Shown in pieces: positions 16,899 through 43,443 of a stretch of 64,000 nucleotides of DNA. The stretch's first letter is position 1. Every line of letters starts with the position of its first letter. A program made the position numbers and the translations under genes. The DNA comes from the human T2T-CHM13v2.0 reference genome, Homo sapiens. Location of the stretch: assembly GCF_009914755.1 (NCBI RefSeq), contig NC_060928.1; one strand, given 5' to 3'. The notes beneath the pieces are model-generated. The model did not search any database. It had not been told where the DNA came from and saw nothing but the letters and a program-made list of their open reading frames with translations.

Positions 16899-17042
16899 TG
16901 TCGTGAGTTTAATTTTGTTCCCCAAAATGTTATATTTTAGCCCCAGTACTCGTGAACATGACTTTACTTGGAAATGAGATATTTGCAGATATCGTGCTAG
17001 ATGGGAGACCATGCAGGATTAGAGTGAGCCCTAAATCCAATG
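16899..17042 (+). mobile_element. MLT1 LTR 5' portion, truncated
   Basis: ccccagtactc...gactttacttggaaatgagatatttgcagat...ggattagagtgagccctaaatccaatg; similarity ends abruptly. Confidence 0.7.
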
Positions 17043-17611
17043 CAAAGGTAAGTATTACCACTATTTATCAGAAAAAGCTGGCACTATAAAGTACAGTATT
17101 GACCCAGTGCAATACTCTCTGCTGAAGATATTGCTCCACTGAGTTTTTTTAATGTAAAACTCACTTTATTATCTTTATATTTTCTATAAAATAAAGTTGT
17201 TAGATTAATAATCCATAAGAATGTCATTGTTTAGATATATATTAATTTTGATAAATTATTTGAGCAAATATTGCATTATTTGCATTGAATAGGTAGGTGG
17301 TGTCACTGCTCATTAAATATTCTTTGTCCAAAGGCTGTTAATCAGTGACTTATCATTAACATTTCTTTCAAACGTGCTACAAACTATTAAGTTTGTCTCC
17401 CTCCTATTCTTCTCAAAACTTATTACTTTATTCAAAATCATGCATGTTCTATTTGAAGATCCATTTCTCTTTTCAGTACCACCCTTCTCCACTAGCCTAA
17501 TCACATTATTCCTATTTTCAACATCTGGAATCCAAATCCGTAATGAAAATGGAATATCTAAGAAATAATAATCTCAAAAGATATTCCATTTTTCTTCTTC
17601 CTTACTCCTAG

Positions 17612-17892
17612 TCAAGCCTAGGGTGAACGTCTCCCCATCCAAGAAGGGTCCTCTGAAGCACCACAACCTGTTTGTCTGCCACGTGACAGATTTCTATCCA
17701 GGCAGCATTCAAGTCTGATGGTTCCTGAATGGAAAGGAGGAAATAGCTGGGGTTGTGTCCACCAACATGATTCATAATGAGACTAGACCTTCCAGATCCC
17801 AGTGATGCTGGAAATGAGCCACCAGCAGGGAGACATCTACACCTGCCAAGTGAAGCACCCTAGCCTGGACAGTCCTGTCACCACGGAGTGGA
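17612..17892 (+). pseudogene. Isolated MHC class II DP beta-chain exon 3 (beta-2 Ig C1 domain), disabled, unprocessed fragment
   Basis: Translates (V)[90 protein letters not shown], closely matching the HLA-DPB beta-2 domain. Polypyrimidine tract plus AG at 17610-11 and GTGAGT donor at 17893. TGA at 17716, a 1-bp deletion near 17780 and TAG at 17784. Length 281 bp versus the canonical 282. Confidence 0.95.
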
Positions 17893-18416
17893 GTGAGTTA
17901 GTCTCTGATGACCCTCTAAACCCCACCTCTGAAGAGCAGGGGACTCTCTGGCTCTGGGGTCCACTCATCTTGTCTTCTGTGTCTATACTCTGGGGCCATG
18001 GCTGACCCCATCTTTCTTCTATACCAGTTCCTGAGAGTGGTTTCAACCTGGGGCAGTGGAGACTTGCCTGTCTTTGGCCTAGGGGATCCTGAGGATTCAC
18101 AGTTTTCCCACTCATCAGAGTCTAGGGACAGAGACACCTTCTTGAACTGACCTCACACATGGGAACTGTTCTCTTTCTTCAGCCTTTTATCCTATTCTGA
18201 GTTATTTTGAGAGACAACTGCTGAATTCTGCATTTGTGCCTTGTTGAGATCACACCATATGTTTCAGAATTAAGGGAGTGGCTTTTTCTCAATTTCCTCT
18301 TATGCAAGGTGTACCCCCCTCACTGTACTTGTGCCAATATCCTACAACAGGCTGCAAGATACCAGACAGGATGTGAGCAGGGGCGCAGCTGGTGGAGGTG
18401 ACAATGACCCTGGGTC
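17893..18416 (+). pseudogene. DP-beta intron 3-like sequence accompanying the orphan exon
   Basis: GC-richer block following the donor site that resembles my recollection of HLA-DPB intron 3 (tctctgatgaccctct..., cagctggtggaggtgaca...ctgggtc). No exon 4 (TM) follows; the sequence reverts to AT-rich DNA. Confidence 0.7.
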
Positions 18417-19739
18417 AGCTTATAGAAACTCAGCTCCACTGAGTTTCTATAAAGTAGCAGCTTTTTGTACCTGCATAGAAATAGCCAGAATGATAAATAA
18501 TTCCATCATCTATGATCACTTCTATTCCAACATCCAATTTTAGTTGCCAAAAGATTGGAGACTACTGGTAAATCACAGGAAAAATAAATCGTAGTCTGCA
18601 TTTCTTTTGTAGTATTCATAAAATTTCTATATCCATCAAAACTTTGTACTTTTCTGATTTCCATAATTACATTATTGGTTGAGAATCTAATCATTGGACT
18701 ACACAATATAACACAAAATAAGCAAGCAAGGAAACTAACAAAAACAAACTATTTTTCCTTACTTTGTTACTATCATTCCAACTTCAAGCAACAGAGACAT
18801 GTAATTTCCATTTTTGTTTTAATAAGTGTCTTTAATGTTGCCATACAAAAATAATATCCATGATTTCCATGTTACTGAGATGTTATCTAAAAATAAACAT
18901 GCGTCTTCTAATATTCTCCTTTCTTTAGAAAGCACAAACATTGAACCATTCTATCCAAGACCAAATTTGGTTAAGTAGCCAAGCTCCCCAAAGTCAGCTG
19001 TTATTACTTTCTTCTCCTCCATGAAGTTTCAATAGCTTCATGATATATTCACATTTGCCAGCTTGAAAAAGAGTCTTCTTCACTGAGTGTGACAGGGAGT
19101 AGTGAATCTGTTCATTGTGAAAGTTTTTCTACAGCAGGATAAGACACAGCCCTGGTACCTGGGATAGCCACTGGCAGAGAGCATTATCCAACAATATGCT
19201 GCATGCAGTTTAACCTTGTTTTTACTCCACAGTCATGAGGCATGAATTCACTGTACTTGCTTCACCAACACAGGTTTAAAAAACATGCTGCAATTGCCTC
19301 TTTTATTAAACACAAATGAACACCTTAGACCCCGGGACAGGTAAGAAGAAATTTCCTGTACTTAGGAAATATTTTCATTTAATAGCAGCAGTGAGAACTC
19401 AGCCTCTGTACTTGGTATTAGAGCACCTTTTGTTTACTCCAAAATGTGAAAACAATTAACAAACATTATTAATAAGAGATATTAGAATTTGGAATGTTCT
19501 TTTAAAAATACTATATTTTATGAGGATTATACTCTTTGAGCCTTGTAGATCAAGGAGGAGATTAAAGAGATCTTTAGAAAGAAGGGAAGAGTCTGCTTCT
19601 TCCTGTAGAAATCTTTTAAAATCTGAGTGTTGTAGGGACGTATTATATTCTAACTCTGCCTCCAAAAAAGCAGCTGATATTTATGAAGCAAATTGTGAAA
19701 GTGAACATTTTTTATTGAGCTCCTTTAGTAGGTATTCAC

Positions 19740-39154: not shown

Positions 39155-39794
39155 TTGCTTAGGAAACCTGATTTGCTTTATGTATTTCATTCTTCCAGTG
39201 CATTGTGCTGGGTCTTTGTAACATTAAGTCAGCAAAAGATATTCCACATAAATGGAAACCAAAAGCAAGCAGGTGTAGCTATACTTATATCAGATAAAAC
39301 AGACTTTAAGTCAAAAACAGTAAAAATAGACAAACAATGTCATTATATAATGATAAAAGAAACAATTCAACAAGAGGATGTAGCAATTCTGAATATATAT
39401 GAACCCAACACCAATGCACCCAGGTATATAAAGCAATTGGATTCAAATACATTATTAATATTTGGAGACTTCAATATCCTACTCTTAGCATTGGACAGAT
39501 CATCTAGACAGAAAAGCAACAAAGAAACAGTGGATTTAAACTGCTCTTTAAACCAAATGGACCTAACAGACATTTACAGAATACTTTACACAGCACCTGC
39601 AGAAATACATTCTTTGCATCAACACATGGAACCTTCTCCAGGATAGACTATAAATTGGGACACAAAACAGGTTTCAACAATTTTTTTTAAAATAAAACTA
39701 GAAATAAATAATAAAAAGAACTTTGGAAACTGTACAAATAGATGGAAATAAAACATGCTCCTGAACAACCACTAGCTCAATGAAGAAGTTAATT

Positions 39795-40762
39795 CTTTTT
39801 TTTACAGGCTTAATTCACTTTACTTTTCTTGTATAAAAACCCTATGTTGTAGCCACAGCTGGAGCCTGGGTCCGCTGTACGGAGACTCTGGTGTGGGTCT
39901 TGAGGAGGTGGTCAGTGAATTCCTGATAGGGAGACTTGGTAAATACAGGTCTCCTTCCAGAGGTCGGGGGCCAGGTAGCTGTAGGTCTTAGAAATGGCAT
40001 CAAAGGTGGCCTTGGCGAAGTTGCCCAGGGTGGCAGTGCAGCCTCGGGCTGAGGTATAGCAGTCATTGATACCAGCCATCATAAGCAGCTTCTTGGACAC
40101 AGGTGTGGAGACGATGCCAGTGCCCCTGGGTGCAGGGATGAGGTGCAGCAGCACAGAGCTGCAGCGGCCTGTAACCTTGCAAGGGACGGTGTGGGGCTTG
40201 CTGATCTTGTTCCCCCAGTAGGCTCTGCGCACGGGGACAATGGAGAGCTTGGCCAGGATGGTGGCCCCACGGATGGCGGTGGCCACCTCCTTGGAGCACT
40301 TAACATCCAGACAGAAGTGGCCATTGTAGTCCCCGACAGCAACAAACGCCTTGAACCTGGTGCCCTGGCCGGCAGGGGACTGCTTCTGCACCGGCATAAT
40401 CTTCAAAACCTCATCCTTGAGAGAGGCCCCCAGGAAAAAGTCAATAAGTCAATGATCTCTGATTCCTTTATGGGCAGGGAGAAGAGATAGATCTCCTCCA
40501 GGGACTTGATCTTCATGTCCTTGACCAAGTGGCCCAGCTTGGTGACGGGCATCCACTCCTTATCCTCAGCTTTGCCTCCATGAGCTCCACGGCCTCGGCC
40601 CTGGCCCCATCCATGGCCGCTACCCTGGCCCTGGATGCCACTGCCGAAACCTCCACCGAAGCCACCGTGGTTCCCCATCCCAGGGCCACCAGGGCCTCTG
40701 GCCCCCCACTCCCCCGCTGCACCAGCGTCATCCACCATTTGGTGTTTTCTTGGAGAAGAAGA
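39795..40762 (-). pseudogene. RPS2: Processed pseudogene of 40S ribosomal protein S2 (uS5)
   Basis: ATG at 40738 (MVDDAGAAG...[14 protein letters not shown]...[15 protein letters not shown]...[12 protein letters not shown], stop at 39842); intronless; 5' pyrimidine leader; short poly-A; TSD aagaagttaatt 39783-94 / 40763-74; frameshifts from an 8-bp duplication at 40438-53 and a +1 near 39948. Confidence 0.98.
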
Positions 40763-43443
40763 AAGAAGTTAATTTTTAAACAAATGAAAACAGAAACACA
40801 ATGTACTAAAACCTTTAGGATATAGCAAAAGCAATGTTAAGGTAGAATTTTATAATAATAAATGCCTACATCAAAAAAGTAGAAAAATTTAAAATAATCT
40901 ATGTACCTCAAGAAACTACAAAAATAAGAACAAATCTAACCCCCAATTTATAGGAAAAAGAAATAACGAATATTAGAGCAGAACTAAACAAAGTGGACAC
41001 TAAAAATAAAAATACAAAGGATGAATTAAACAAAAACATTTTTTGAAAAGATAAAATTGGTAAACTGCTACCTAGATAAAACAAAGAATAAAAGAATGAC
41101 CAAAATAAACAAAATGAGAAATAAAAAGGGAAATATTACAACCAATACCACAAAAATATAAACAACTGTCAGAGACTGTTATGAAAAGCTATGCTTAAAC
41201 ATGTTGGAAAACCTGGAGAAAATGGATAAATTCCTGGACTTATGCAACTTACCAAGATTGAACAAGGAAGAAAGAGGGAACATAAACAGAACAATGAGTA
41301 ATAAGATTGAACCAGTAATAAAAAATCTCCCAACAAAGAAAAGCTCAGTAAACTGGCTTTACTGCTGAATTTTACCAAAATTATAAGGAAAAACTAACAC
41401 TAATTCTTCTTAAACTATTCTAAAATATTAAAGAGGAAGGAATCCTTTCTAAATCATTCTATGAGCAAGACATACCTGGACACTAAGACCAGACAAGGAC
41501 ACACAATAAAAGACTACAGGCACATATCCCTGATGAACATAGGCACAAAATTCCTCAACAAAATACTAGCAAACAGAATCTAACAACACATCAAAAAGAT
41601 AATACACCAAAATCAAATGAGATTTGTCCTAGGGATGCAAGGATAGTTTGATATATGTGAATTAATAGATGTGATGCATCATATCAACAGAATGAAGGAC
41701 AAAACCATATTGACCATCTCAATAGATGCAGAAAAAGTATTTGATAAAATTCAACAATGTTTCATAATAAAAACTCTTCACAAATTAGGCATAGGAGTAA
41801 CATACCTCAATACAACAAAGGCCATGTATGACAAATCCACAGCTAACATCATAATAAATGGGGAAAATCTGAAAACCTTTTCTCTAAGAACTGGAACAAG
41901 ACAAGGATGCCCAGTGTTACTACTCTTATTCAATATAATGCTGAAAGTCCTAGCCAGAACAATATGGTAAGAGAAAGAAAGAAAAGGCAACCAAGTTAGG
42001 AAAGAGAAAGTCAAATTGTCCCTCTTTGCATATGACATGATCTTATATTTTGAAAAACTAGAAGAATCCACTGAAAACTATTAGAATTGGTAAACAAATT
42101 CAGTAAAGTTGCAGGATAGACAATTAACCTATAAAAATCACTATGATTTCTATACATTAATAATAAAATAGCTAACAAGGAAACCAAGAAAGCAATTCCA
42201 TTTATCATAGATACAAATAAACAAAATACTTAGAAATAAATAAAACCAAGGGGATGAAAGATCTCCACAAGGAAAACGATAAGACACTGATGAAAGAAAC
42301 TGAAAACACAAACAAATGGAAACACATCCTATGCTCATGGACTCGAGAATTAATATTGTTGAAATGATCATATTATCCACAGAAATCTACAGATTCAATA
42401 AAATCCCTAACAAAATACCAATGACATTGTTCACAGAAGTAGAAAAAAAAACAGTCTTAAATGTGTATGGAATCACAAAAGACATGAATAGCAAAAAAAT
42501 TCTGAGCAAAAAGAATAAAGCTAGAAGAAGTAAGCTACTTGACTTCAAAATATACTACAAAGGTATAGTAAACAAACAAACAAACAAAAAACAAAACATG
42601 GTTTGGGATAAAAACACATAAACTAGTGAAACAGAATAGAAAGCCTACATATAAATAACTGTATTTACAGCCAATTGATATTTTACAAAGGTACCAAGAA
42701 CATAGATTGAGAAACGGATACCCCCTTCAATAAACAATGCTGAGAAAACTAGATATCTATATGCAGAAGAATAAAACTAGACTCCAGTCTGTCACCATAT
42801 TAAAAAATCAACTCAAAATGGATTAAAGACTTAAATATATGACCCAAAACTATAAAACTACTAGAAAAGAAAAACACAGGGGGAAAAACTTCAGGACATT
42901 GATATAGGCAAAGATTATACAACTAGAACCTCAAAAGCAGCCAAAACAAAAAGATGCAAACGGGACTATATGAAACCAAAATGCTTTTGCACATCAAAGG
43001 AAATAATAAACAGGGTGGAGACACAACCTTTAGAATGAAAGAAAATATTGCAAGCTATTCAATCCAACAAGGGACTAATATCCAGAATCTATAAGAAACG
43101 CAAACAACTGCACAGCAAAAGCAACAAATAATCTTATTAAAAATGGGCAAATAATCTGAATAGACATTTCTCAAAAGAAGATATACAAATGGCCAACAGG
43201 TATATGAAGAAATGCTCAACATAATTAATCATCAGAAAAAACGCAAAGCAAAACCACAATGAGATATCATCTTATCCCAGTTAGAATGGGTATTATCAAA
43301 ATGACAAAAACAAAAAACAAAAACAAATGTTGATTAGAATGTGGAGCAAAGGGGGTTATTATATATTCTTAGTAGTAACATAAATTAGTATAGCCATTAT
43401 AGAAAACAGTATGGAGATTTCTCTTTTCTTTTATTTTCTCTTC

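What the first reader, a model, noticed from the sequence alone, without database searches (positions are those of the whole stretch)
17560..18416. Orphan, intron-flanked HLA-DP beta exon 3 in a gene desert with no other MHC exons
Seen: a 281-bp exon encoding the DP-beta beta-2 Ig domain with intact AG/GT splice sites, two stops and a 1-bp deletion. I recognise no signal-peptide, beta-1, TM or DP-alpha exon anywhere in the 64 kb. Established: HLA-DPB1 and DPB2 are multi-exon genes next to DPA genes in the gene-dense 6p21 class II region. Inference: this is a DNA-level or pre-mRNA-derived fragment dispersed from the DP locus. It keeps intron sequence, so it is not a spliced retrocopy, and no poly-A or TSD is apparent. 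It is clearly diverged from DPB1, so it may record an ancestral or extinct primate DPB lineage. It could also attract HLA-DPB reads or primers.
Basis: partly seen in the sequence, partly recalled or inferred. Interest (0 to 1): 0.85.

Follow-up and report, generated by a model that had tools for sequence, protein, structure and literature searches.

The report
Old antisense retrocopy of HLA-DPB piece
A dead 1.3-kb piece of an HLA-DPB gene (one exon with parts of both neighbouring introns) sits alone on chromosome 4, most likely because the LINE-1 machinery long ago pasted in a copy of an RNA read backwards across the gene; it is a molecular fossil, not a working gene.

Summary
Window 17612-17892 is a 281-bp HLA-DP-type beta-2 (C1-set) exon with AG/GT borders, two stops (TGA 17716, TAG 17784) and a 1-bp deletion.

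Homology to DPB genes is wider than reported. It runs from 17151 to 18419 and covers 461 bp of intron 2, exon 3 and all but the last ~12 nt of intron 3. No other class II exon lies in the window, and no beta-1 or alpha-1 exon was found outside chr6.

- A perfect 14-bp direct repeat, GCTCCACTGAGTTT, occurs only twice in the 64 kb and brackets the insert at 17133 and 18433.
- The left junction carries a T-run that the DPB genes lack.
- TTTATT (antisense AATAAA) lies 14 nt inside that junction and is shared with DPB2.
- The right junction carries a 13-nt snap-back copy of the target site.

Best reading (about 0.72): a LINE-1-mediated retrocopy of an antisense, polyadenylated transcript of a DPB2-like gene. 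This explains why the introns were kept. The copy has decayed neutrally (branch about 0.09 substitutions per site), so it is roughly 40-65 Myr old. It is a new member of a known kind, of modest interest. It is not annotated in the RefSeq table supplied by the hub.

The parts
17133..17146 (.). Target-site duplication, left copy (GCTCCACTGAGTTT)
   Evidence: This 14-mer occurs exactly twice in the 64-kb window, here and at 18433. It is family D1. Only 1 of 400 random zone pairs at the same spacing reached 14 nt or more.
17147..17150 (-). Four T not templated by DPB1 or DPB2. With the TTT of the TSD they form T7 (17144-17150). Read as the remnant of the poly(A) tail of a minus-strand (antisense-to-DPB) RNA.
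   Evidence: The three-way alignment shows DPB2 and DPB1 reading ...AATAAGTCACG / ...AATAAGACATG here, with no T-run.
17151..17611 (+). 3' 461 bp of DPB intron 2 (DPB sense is on the + strand)
   Evidence: blastn: 17154-17435 matches DPB2 at 78.9%, and 17152-17574 matches DPB1 at 71.5%. Alignment. The chr4 copy lacks the separate Alu that each chr6 gene carries here.
17165..17170 (-). TTTATT, i.e. AATAAA on the minus strand, 14 nt upstream of the tail remnant: candidate polyadenylation signal of the antisense template
   Evidence: The hexamer is present at the same alignment position in DPB2 (TTTATT), while DPB1 has TTCATT. Chance of such a hexamer in that range: 3.6% of window positions, 7.9% in the local AT-rich DNA.
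17612..17892 (+). DPB exon 3 (beta-2, C1-set Ig domain), 281 bp. Broken by TGA 17716-17718, TAG 17784-17786 and a 1-bp deletion after 17778.
   Evidence: It has 30 differences in 281 bp to DPB1 and 31 in 281 bp to DPB2.
17893..18419 (+). DPB intron 3, all but its last ~12 nt. Donor GTGAGT is kept, and a 4-bp insertion follows just after it.
   Evidence: blastn homology ends at 18412 (DPB2) and 18416 (DPB1). In DPB1, exon 4 starts 12 nt after the last aligned base.
18420..18432 (.). 13-nt junction filler: a perfect inverted copy of target DNA 18440-18452. It spans the end of the TSD and the next 6 nt of flank.
   Evidence: Inverted repeat I4: 14-nt arms (18420-18433 and 18439-18452), 100% complementary, 5-nt loop. 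Hairpin z-score -5.04, with 0 of 200 shuffles folding as well.
18433..18446 (.). Target-site duplication, right copy

Best explanation
The feature is a single, complete insertion of 1,286 bp (window 17147-18432), made by the LINE-1 target-primed reverse-transcription machinery from a non-LINE RNA. The template was a polyadenylated transcript running antisense across a DPB2-like HLA-DPB gene.

Proposed steps:
1. The + strand of chr4 was nicked after ...GAGTTT.
2. The RNA's poly(A) tail paired with those T residues.
3. Reverse transcription copied about 1.27 kb of the RNA. Read on the + strand, this appears as DPB-sense intron 2, exon 3 and intron 3. Copying stopped about 12 nt short of exon 4.
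4. The other strand was cut 14 nt away, which created the TSD.
5. The 3' end of that strand snapped back and copied 13 nt of itself before switching onto the cDNA.

Because the RNA was antisense, the gene's splice sites meant nothing to it, so the introns were kept. The copy was dead on arrival and has decayed neutrally since.

Shown: the TSD, the non-templated T-run, the position of the antisense AATAAA and its presence in DPB2, the inverted filler, neutral decay, DP affinity, and the absence of other class II exons.

Inferred: LINE-1 as the enzyme, the existence of the antisense RNA, its source, and the date. One possible source is read-through from the convergent DPA3/DPA2-type gene downstream.
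For: 1. A perfect 14-bp direct repeat lies exactly outside both ends of the homology and occurs nowhere else in 64 kb. Only 1 of 400 control zone pairs reached 14 nt. A passage in PMC1687206 gives about 14 bp as the LINE-1 TSD length.
2. At the left junction the TSD ends in TTT and is followed by 4 more T that neither DPB1 nor DPB2 has. No run of four or more A exists at the right end. So only the antisense orientation has a tail.
3. Antisense AATAAA lies 14 nt from the tail and is present in DPB2. In DPB2 a T-rich stretch follows about 30-40 nt further on in the antisense direction.
4. The filler at the right junction is an exact inverted copy of the sequence across the presumed nick (CTGAGTTT|CTATAA). 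This shows that the sequence was contiguous before insertion and that the 3' end created by the second cut was extended.
5. The chr4 branch is 0.085, 0.087 and 0.095 substitutions per site in intron 2, exon 3 and intron 3, so the exon is no more conserved than the introns.
6. The block is single: no other DP gene DNA in the window, and no beta-1 or alpha-1 exon found off chr6.
7. Source. Site patterns over both introns are DPB1-unique 110, DPB2-unique 78 and chr4-unique 64. Intron K2P distances are chr4-DPB2 0.205, chr4-DPB1 0.2525 and DPB1-DPB2 0.274.
8. A convergent alpha-1 fragment (DPA3, minus strand) lies at C6:32952546-32952692, about 2.6 kb downstream of DPB2 intron 3. The 3 kb in between is single-copy.
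Against: - The tail remnant is very short: 7 T, of which only 4 are non-templated.
- The nick site reads GTTT/CT. This is T-rich on the primer side but lacks the A residues of the usual TTTT/AA site (consensus recalled, not tested).
- An AATAAA in the right range would occur by chance at 3.6-7.9% of positions.
- I have no evidence for a present-day antisense transcript. A literature search for HLA-DPB2 + HLA-DPA3 + antisense returned 0 papers, and no expression data are available here.
- Intron 3 does not favour DPB2 (patterns 43/42/37).
- The exon-3 tree leaves chr4, DPB1 and DPB2 unresolved (38% support).
- Snap-back fillers are also typical of DNA end-joining (recalled), so point 4 above does not by itself require RNA.
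- The orthologous empty site could not be examined because no other primate genome is held.
Confidence: 0.72

Rival explanations
1. DNA-level capture. A staggered break on chr4 was repaired by template-switching or end-joining synthesis. It first copied 13 nt of its own flank and then about 1.27 kb of genomic DNA from the DP region. No RNA intermediate was involved.
For: Introns are retained. The junction filler is a snap-back copy of the flank, which is a signature also produced by polymerase-theta-type repair (recalled). The tail remnant is only 4 non-templated T, and the nick site is not a canonical LINE-1 endonuclease site.
Against: A 14-nt stagger giving a perfect 14-bp TSD is the LINE-1 hallmark (PMC1687206 passage). 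The left breakpoint falls 14 nt past an antisense AATAAA shared with DPB2 and is capped by non-templated T. Under this rival both would be coincidences. No microhomology between DPB DNA and the target is visible at the left junction.
Confidence: 0.14
2. Orphan 3' transduction. The antisense RNA started in a LINE-1 or other retroelement lying downstream of DPB exon 4 on the minus strand and read through into the gene. Severe 5' truncation then left only the transduced DPB sequence.
For: It would give the same TSD, tail, polyadenylation signal and intron retention as the best explanation. It is a special case of that explanation, with a defined source of the RNA.
Against: The 3 kb downstream of DPB2 intron 3 (C6:32949990-32952990) matched only 10 places, all on chr6. 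These were the DPB1/DPA2/DPA1 paralogous DNA and short matches in the DR/DQ region. No multi-copy element is present there. DNA further downstream, and the DPB1 side, were not examined for retroelements.
Confidence: 0.06
3. Retrocopy of an unspliced sense pre-mRNA fragment of a DPB gene, primed at the right-hand end.
For: Sense pre-mRNA certainly exists for an expressed class II gene. The exon has its sense on the + strand.
Against: There is no run of four or more A at the right junction, and no sense AATAAA or ATTAAA near it: the only sense hexamers are at 17190 and 17312. The strand that would have been nicked first reads ...GGAGC/AATATC, which is not T-rich. The T-run and the hexamer sit at the wrong end for this model.
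Confidence: 0.03

Closest known systems
HLA-DPB2 (class II DP beta pseudogene, 6p21) and HLA-DPB1
   Same: The block is collinear with intron 2, exon 3 and intron 3 of both genes. Identity is 83.6% over 913 bp to DPB2 and 82.1% over 868 bp to DPB1. On exon 3, chr4, DPB1 and DPB2 form a DP clade with 100% support against DQ, DR and DO. The antisense AATAAA is shared with DPB2.
   Different: Only about 1.27 kb of the gene is present. There is no beta-1, transmembrane or alpha-chain partner exon. It lies on chr4. It lacks DPB2's own 1-bp exon-3 deletion and the intron-2 Alu of either gene. It carries its own two stops and a frameshift.
LINE-1-mediated processed pseudogenes (retrocopies of mRNAs)
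   Same: About 14-bp TSD, a tail at one end preceded by a polyadenylation signal, a 5' junction with extra nucleotides, and a single dispersed copy that decays neutrally.
   Different: Introns are present. The tail is on the strand opposite to the gene's sense, so the template was not the mRNA. The review PMC5470649 (passages seen) notes that intron-containing retrocopies may be overlooked by the usual search strategies.
snoRNA retroposons (snoRTs) of types 2 and 3, Weber 2006, PMC1687206
   Same: These are LINE-1-type retroposons with a short A-rich tail and an ~14-bp TSD that carry intron sequence of the parental gene (abstract and passages seen).
   Different: snoRTs start at a mature snoRNA 5' end and are in the sense of the host gene. 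No Rfam family reaches its gathering score in 17000-18600: the only match is mir-7359 at 21.9 bits against 90. The template here is antisense.
Retrocopies of non-coding primary transcripts that record how the parent was transcribed (microRNA retrocopies, PMC7692494)
   Same: The end of the retrocopy, joined to its tail, is used to infer an alternative 3' end of the parental transcript (abstract seen). Here the left junction implies an antisense cleavage site in DPB intron 2.
   Different: The parental locus and strand differ. Here the parental transcript itself is only inferred.

Membership tests
MHC class II beta chain, beta-2 domain exon of the DP lineage | Immunoglobulin C1-set domain | tested here: met
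   PF07654 matches both halves: 48 bits (profile positions 1-52) and 24.6 bits (57-86), cut-off 21. Both domain cysteines are kept (FVCHV, YTCQV).
MHC class II beta chain, beta-2 domain exon of the DP lineage | Closer to DP than to DQ, DR or DO | tested here: met
   DNA identity is 82-84% to the two DP genes against 72-77% to seven other chr6 class II exon-3 matches. The 10 DP beta PDB entries rank first. DP clade has 100% support.
MHC class II beta chain, beta-2 domain exon of the DP lineage | Part of a complete, readable class II beta gene (leader, beta-1, beta-2, TM exons; open frame) | tested here: not met
   Two stops and a frameshift. No other DP gene DNA in the window. No PF00969 match off chr6: 9 of 9 on chr6.
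LINE-1-mediated retrocopy | Target-site duplication of LINE-1 length flanking the whole insert | tested here: met
   14 bp, perfect, unique in the window, directly outside the homology.
LINE-1-mediated retrocopy | Poly(A) tail at the 3' end of the copied RNA | tested here: inconclusive
   Only T7 on the + strand (17144-17150). Three of these belong to the TSD and four are non-templated. This is compatible with an eroded or short tail but is not proof.
LINE-1-mediated retrocopy | Polyadenylation signal 10-30 nt upstream of the tail (spacing recalled) | tested here: met
   Antisense AATAAA at 17165-17170, 14 nt from the T-run, also present in DPB2. Chance 3.6-7.9%.
LINE-1-mediated retrocopy | Endonuclease target resembling TTTT/AA at the primed nick (consensus recalled) | tested here: inconclusive
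   The inferred nick is GTTT/CT. It has three T on the primer side and no A after the nick.
LINE-1-mediated retrocopy | Loss of the parental introns | tested here: not met
   Intron 2 and intron 3 DNA is present. This is expected if the template was antisense. So it is not a 'processed pseudogene' in the strict sense.
LINE-1-mediated retrocopy | Empty orthologous site in a lineage that split before the insertion | not testable with these tools
   Only the human genome is held. The flanks have no paralogue that could serve as an empty site.
Segmental (DNA-mediated) duplication of the DP region | A block carrying neighbouring genomic DNA, without retroposition hallmarks | tested here: not met
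   Homology stops sharply at both TSDs, although at least 870 bp more chr6 DNA was available on the left side and about 1.5 kb on the right.

The most novel reading that the evidence does not exclude
The chr4 piece is the only surviving record of something now lost at the DP locus. Either it is an extinct third DPB gene, the missing partner of the DPA3 fragment. Or it records an ancient germline antisense transcript, driven from the convergent DPA3-type promoter, that ran through DPB2 and ended at a real polyadenylation site in its intron 2. In either case it is a neutrally evolving snapshot of a class II gene, about 40-65 Myr old. That snapshot could be used to polarise and date gene conversion between DPB1 and DPB2. 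The star-like intron 3 against the DPB2-like intron 2 hints at such conversion.
Probability: 0.12. Interest if true: 0.45.

Novelty: new member of a known kind. Interest (0 to 1): 0.3.

Why it matters
It explains an odd-looking "orphan exon with introns" by an ordinary machine (LINE-1) acting on an unusual template (an antisense transcript).

- The insert is missing from the RefSeq gene table that the hub supplied. Pipelines that define retrocopies by intron loss would miss it (point made in PMC5470649, passage seen).
- For MHC specialists it offers a neutral, dated outgroup sequence for DPB1/DPB2 intron and exon 3 evolution.
- It gives indirect evidence that the DP region was transcribed antisense in the germline or early embryo of an early anthropoid.
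- Practically, it is too diverged to be a serious source of HLA-DPB mis-mapping.

Tried and rejected
- **Exon 4 at the right end.** I first read the 16 nt between the end of homology and the right TSD as diverged intron 3 plus the start of exon 4 (8 of 11 matches to TAGAGGCACAG). I rejected this when one search showed those bases to be a perfect 14-nt inverted copy of the target site.
- **Empty site from paralogues.** I searched both flanks against the genome. The left flank holds only an old dispersed MIR-like repeat (window 16899-17043; 37 other matches at 69-97%). The right flank is single-copy. No empty site is available.
- **Retroelement source just downstream of DPB2.** None found within 3 kb.
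- **snoRNA or miRNA cargo.** None found.
- **Outgroup rooting of the introns.** The DQ, DR and DO matches cover essentially only the exon. Only exon 3 could be rooted, and it leaves the three DP sequences unresolved.
- **Literature.** Searches found no paper on a DPB fragment on human chromosome 4. The 'chromosome 4' hits include two versions of a rhesus macaque MHC class II paper, seen in the search listing only. These searches cover open-access papers only and are not proof of absence. GENCODE, Dfam and the UCSC retrogene tracks could not be consulted.
- **Minor direct repeats.** Direct repeats D4 and D7 (10-13 nt) near the junctions were treated as chance, since 31 of 400 control zone pairs reach 10 nt or more.
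Full report
**1. What is there**

The window is T2T-CHM13 chr4:43,338,001-43,402,000 (hub note; confirmed).

At 17612-17892 there is a 281-bp stretch bounded by AG and GTGAGT. It translates in two frames:
- KPRVNVSPSKKGPLKHHNLFVCHVTDFYPGSIQV*WFLNGKEEIAGVVSTNMIHN
- then, after a 1-bp deletion, [35 protein letters not shown].

Both halves match the Pfam C1-set domain, at 48 and 24.6 bits against a cut-off of 21. Against PDB sequences, the first half ranks the 10 HLA-DP beta entries first at about 100-102 bits. The best DR chain scores about 74 bits.

The lesions are:
- TGA at 17716-17718, where DPB1 and DPB2 have CGA.
- TAG at 17784-17786, where both have TGG.
- One missing base after 17778.

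**2. Relatives in the same genome**

A DNA search of the whole assembly with 17400-18500 found only chr6 places besides the window itself:
- C6:32949067-32949969 at 84%.
- C6:32906259-32907117 at 82%, with a further piece at 32905703-32905853.
- Seven shorter matches at 72-77% in the DR, DQ and DO part of the class II region, covering essentially only the exon.

Pfam searches of the genome gave 9 of 9 beta-1 (PF00969) matches and 8 of 8 alpha-1 (PF00993) matches on chr6. Their order and strands in the DP subregion are:

| Element | T2T chr6 position (Mb) | Strand |
|---|---|---|
| alpha-1 | 32.891 | − |
| beta-1 | 32.902 | + |
| alpha-1 | 32.914 | − |
| beta-1 | 32.938 | + |
| alpha-1 fragment with a TGA | 32.9525 | − |

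This is the known DPA1-DPB1-DPA2-DPB2-DPA3 arrangement. GRCh38 coordinates for the first four are in a table of PMC9772353 (passage seen). DPA3 is recalled.

The 82% place is DPB1. Its exon 3 translation matches PDB 'DP beta 1 chain' entries over all 93 residues at 209.8 bits. The 84% place is DPB2. It has its own 1-bp deletion in exon 3.

**3. Extent of the copy**

Sensitive blastn and a three-way MAFFT alignment show homology from about 17151 to about 18419:
- 461 bp of the 3' part of intron 2.
- Exon 3.
- Intron 3, except its last ~12 nt. In DPB1, exon 4 begins 12 nt after the last aligned base.

Each chr6 gene carries its own Alu in intron 2, at different points and in different orientation. 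The chr4 copy lacks both.

Homology stops sharply at both ends, although at least 870 bp more of the chr6 loci was available on the left side and about 1.5 kb on the right.

A blastn of 70 kb of the DP region (C6:32,885,001-32,955,000) against the whole window found unique DP gene DNA only at 17152-18416. The other 25 intervals are either multi-copy (Alu-like, up to 14 places) or 60-73% matches to intronic or intergenic DP DNA, that is, shared old repeats.

**4. The junctions**

*Target-site duplication.* The 14-mer GCTCCACTGAGTTT occurs exactly twice in the 64 kb, at 17133-17146 and 18433-18446, directly outside the homologous block. Among 400 random pairs of 200-bp zones at the same spacing, one reached 14 nt or more.

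*Left junction.* It reads TSD-TTTT-AATGTAAAACTCACTTTATT. The four extra T have no counterpart in DPB1 or DPB2. TTTATT (AATAAA on the minus strand) lies at 17165-17170, 14 nt from the T-run. It is present at the same position in DPB2, whereas DPB1 has TTCATT. In DPB2 the antisense strand has a T-rich stretch about 30-40 nt beyond the inferred cleavage point.

*Right junction.* No run of four or more A lies before the TSD. Instead, 18420-18432 is a perfect inverted copy of 18440-18452. Together with G18433 it forms a 14-nt arm against 18439-18452 with a 5-nt loop. The hairpin has z = -5.04, and 0 of 200 shuffles fold as well. The copied stretch runs across the end of the TSD into the next 6 nt of flank (CTGAGTTT|CTATAA). 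So that sequence was continuous before the insertion.

**5. Mechanism**

These features fit target-primed reverse transcription by the LINE-1 machinery. The general scheme, with its ~14-bp TSD, is described in PMC1687206 (passages seen).

1. The + strand was nicked after GAGTTT.
2. The T residues primed on the poly(A) tail of an RNA whose sense is the minus strand, that is, antisense to DPB.
3. About 1.27 kb was reverse-transcribed.
4. The minus strand was cut 14 nt away.
5. Its 3' end (...GGAGC) snapped back, copied 13 nt of itself, then switched to the cDNA.

An antisense template explains why the introns are retained, with no need for a DNA-level transfer.

Weak points:
- The tail remnant is short.
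- The nick site GTTT/CT is only half canonical (consensus recalled).
- An AATAAA at the right distance has a 3.6-7.9% chance expectation.
- No antisense DPB transcript is documented here. One search returned 0 papers, and no expression data are available.
- Snap-back fillers also occur in DNA end-joining (recalled).

I therefore keep a DNA-capture rival at about 0.14. A sense pre-mRNA template is disfavoured because tail, signal and T-rich nick all sit at the wrong end.

An orphan LINE-1 transduction is a possible special case. However, the 3 kb downstream of DPB2 intron 3 matched only other chr6 class II DNA. It is collinear with the DPB1 3' region and then jumps straight to DPA2/DPA1 alpha-1-like DNA.

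That last result shows that the DPA3 alpha-1 fragment abuts the DPB2 3' end in convergent orientation. A transcript starting there would have no 3' exons of its own and would run antisense into DPB2. This is a plausible but untested source of the template.

**6. Source and age**

Only columns with a base in all three sequences were used: 1,184 columns, with Alus and gaps left out.

| Partition | chr4-DPB2 (K2P) | chr4-DPB1 (K2P) | DPB1-DPB2 (K2P) |
|---|---|---|---|
| Introns combined | 0.205 | 0.2525 | 0.274 |
| Exon 3 | 0.121 | 0.117 | 0.064 |

| Partition | DPB1-unique sites | DPB2-unique sites | chr4-unique sites |
|---|---|---|---|
| Intron 2 | 67 | 36 | 27 |
| Intron 3 | 43 | 42 | 37 |
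| Exon 3 | 8 | 9 | 22 |

(Site patterns.)

Under a clock, the intron totals (110, 78, 64) fit chr4 as sister to DPB2, with a split at roughly four fifths of the DPB1/DPB2 depth. This signal comes from intron 2 only. Intron 3 is star-like.

The exon-3 maximum-likelihood tree, rooted with DQ, DR and DO exons, gives a DP clade at 100% support but leaves its interior unresolved at 38%.

The chr4 branch is 0.085, 0.087 and 0.095 in intron 2, exon 3 and intron 3 (0.078, 0.070 and 0.093 without CpG columns). The exon has therefore evolved as fast as the introns, which means no constraint.

With recalled neutral rates for the human lineage (about 1.3-2.2 x 10^-9 per site per year over this span), a branch of about 0.09 corresponds to roughly 40-65 Myr. 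That is near or before the catarrhine-platyrrhine split. The date is an inference and could not be checked against other primates.

The copy lacks DPB2's exon-3 deletion, so that lesion is younger than the copy, or the source was not DPB2 itself.

**7. Comparison with what is known**

The thing works like a LINE-1-mediated retrocopy. It is not a processed pseudogene in the strict sense, because the introns are kept.

The closest described class is intron-bearing retroposons such as type 2 and type 3 snoRTs (PMC1687206). However, no Rfam family reaches its gathering score here, and the template is antisense.

Retrocopies of non-coding primary transcripts have been used to infer how the parental locus was transcribed (PMC7692494, abstract seen). 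The same logic applies here.

PMC2584115 (passages seen) uses 'antisense retrocopy' for mRNA retrocopies inserted in reverse orientation into host genes. That is a different matter.

[quoted passage not shown] This shows that displaced class II sequences are rarely reported, but that case is a whole gene lying near the region.

My three searches found nothing on a human chr4 DPB fragment.

**8. Verdict**

The feature is real and well delimited. It is non-functional and apparently unannotated. Its mechanism is ordinary and its template unusual.

- Confidence in the antisense LINE-1 retrocopy reading: about 0.72.
- Interest: modest (0.3).
- Risk of confusing HLA-DPB typing: low. Exon identity is about 89%, and the only long exact runs shared with DPB1 are 38, 52 and 23 bp.

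Noticed in passing
L002 about 1194-1501 (DPB2 intron 2) and L003 about 1095-1420 (DPB1 intron 2): Each DPB gene has its own Alu in intron 2, at different points and in opposite orientation. In DPB2 the Alu is flanked by a repeated CATCATTCCTA(C/T)TTT. The chr4 copy has the uninterrupted sequence and so acts as a pre-insertion 'empty site' for both Alus.
   Followed up: partly
G000 C6:32949990-32952990 (L017 4990-7990): The DNA downstream of DPB2 is collinear with the DPB1 3' region up to 32952551. It then continues directly in DPA2/DPA1 alpha-1-like DNA, whereas DPB1 and DPA2 are about 4 kb apart at the matching points. The DPA3 fragment therefore lacks its 3' exons and abuts DPB2 tail to tail.
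   Followed up: partly
window 39234-39684 and 40783-42251: The DNA on both sides of the annotated RPS2P21 processed pseudogene (39804-40761) matches one continuous old repeat copy at C6:32920130-32922225 (72% and 67%). RPS2P21 therefore inserted into a pre-existing interspersed repeat.
   Followed up: no
window 16899-17043: An old dispersed repeat of about 140 bp (37 other genomic matches at 69-97% identity, MIR-like by size and divergence; the name is recalled, not tested). It ends 90 bp before the left TSD.
   Followed up: no
window 17546-17559 and 17579-17592: A perfect 14-nt inverted repeat (AAAATGGAATATCT / AGATATTCCATTTT) lies in the intron-2 part just upstream of exon 3. It gives the only Rfam match, mir-7359 at 21.9 bits against a gathering score of 90, i.e. 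chance level. It is only partly present in DPB2.
   Followed up: partly
window 17893-18416 versus 17152-17611: Intron 3 is equidistant among chr4, DPB1 and DPB2 (unique sites 37/43/42). In intron 2, DPB1 stands far apart (67 unique sites). This is compatible with an old DPB1/DPB2 gene-conversion tract over exon 3 and intron 3, or with faster change or poorer alignment of DPB1 intron 2.
   Followed up: partly
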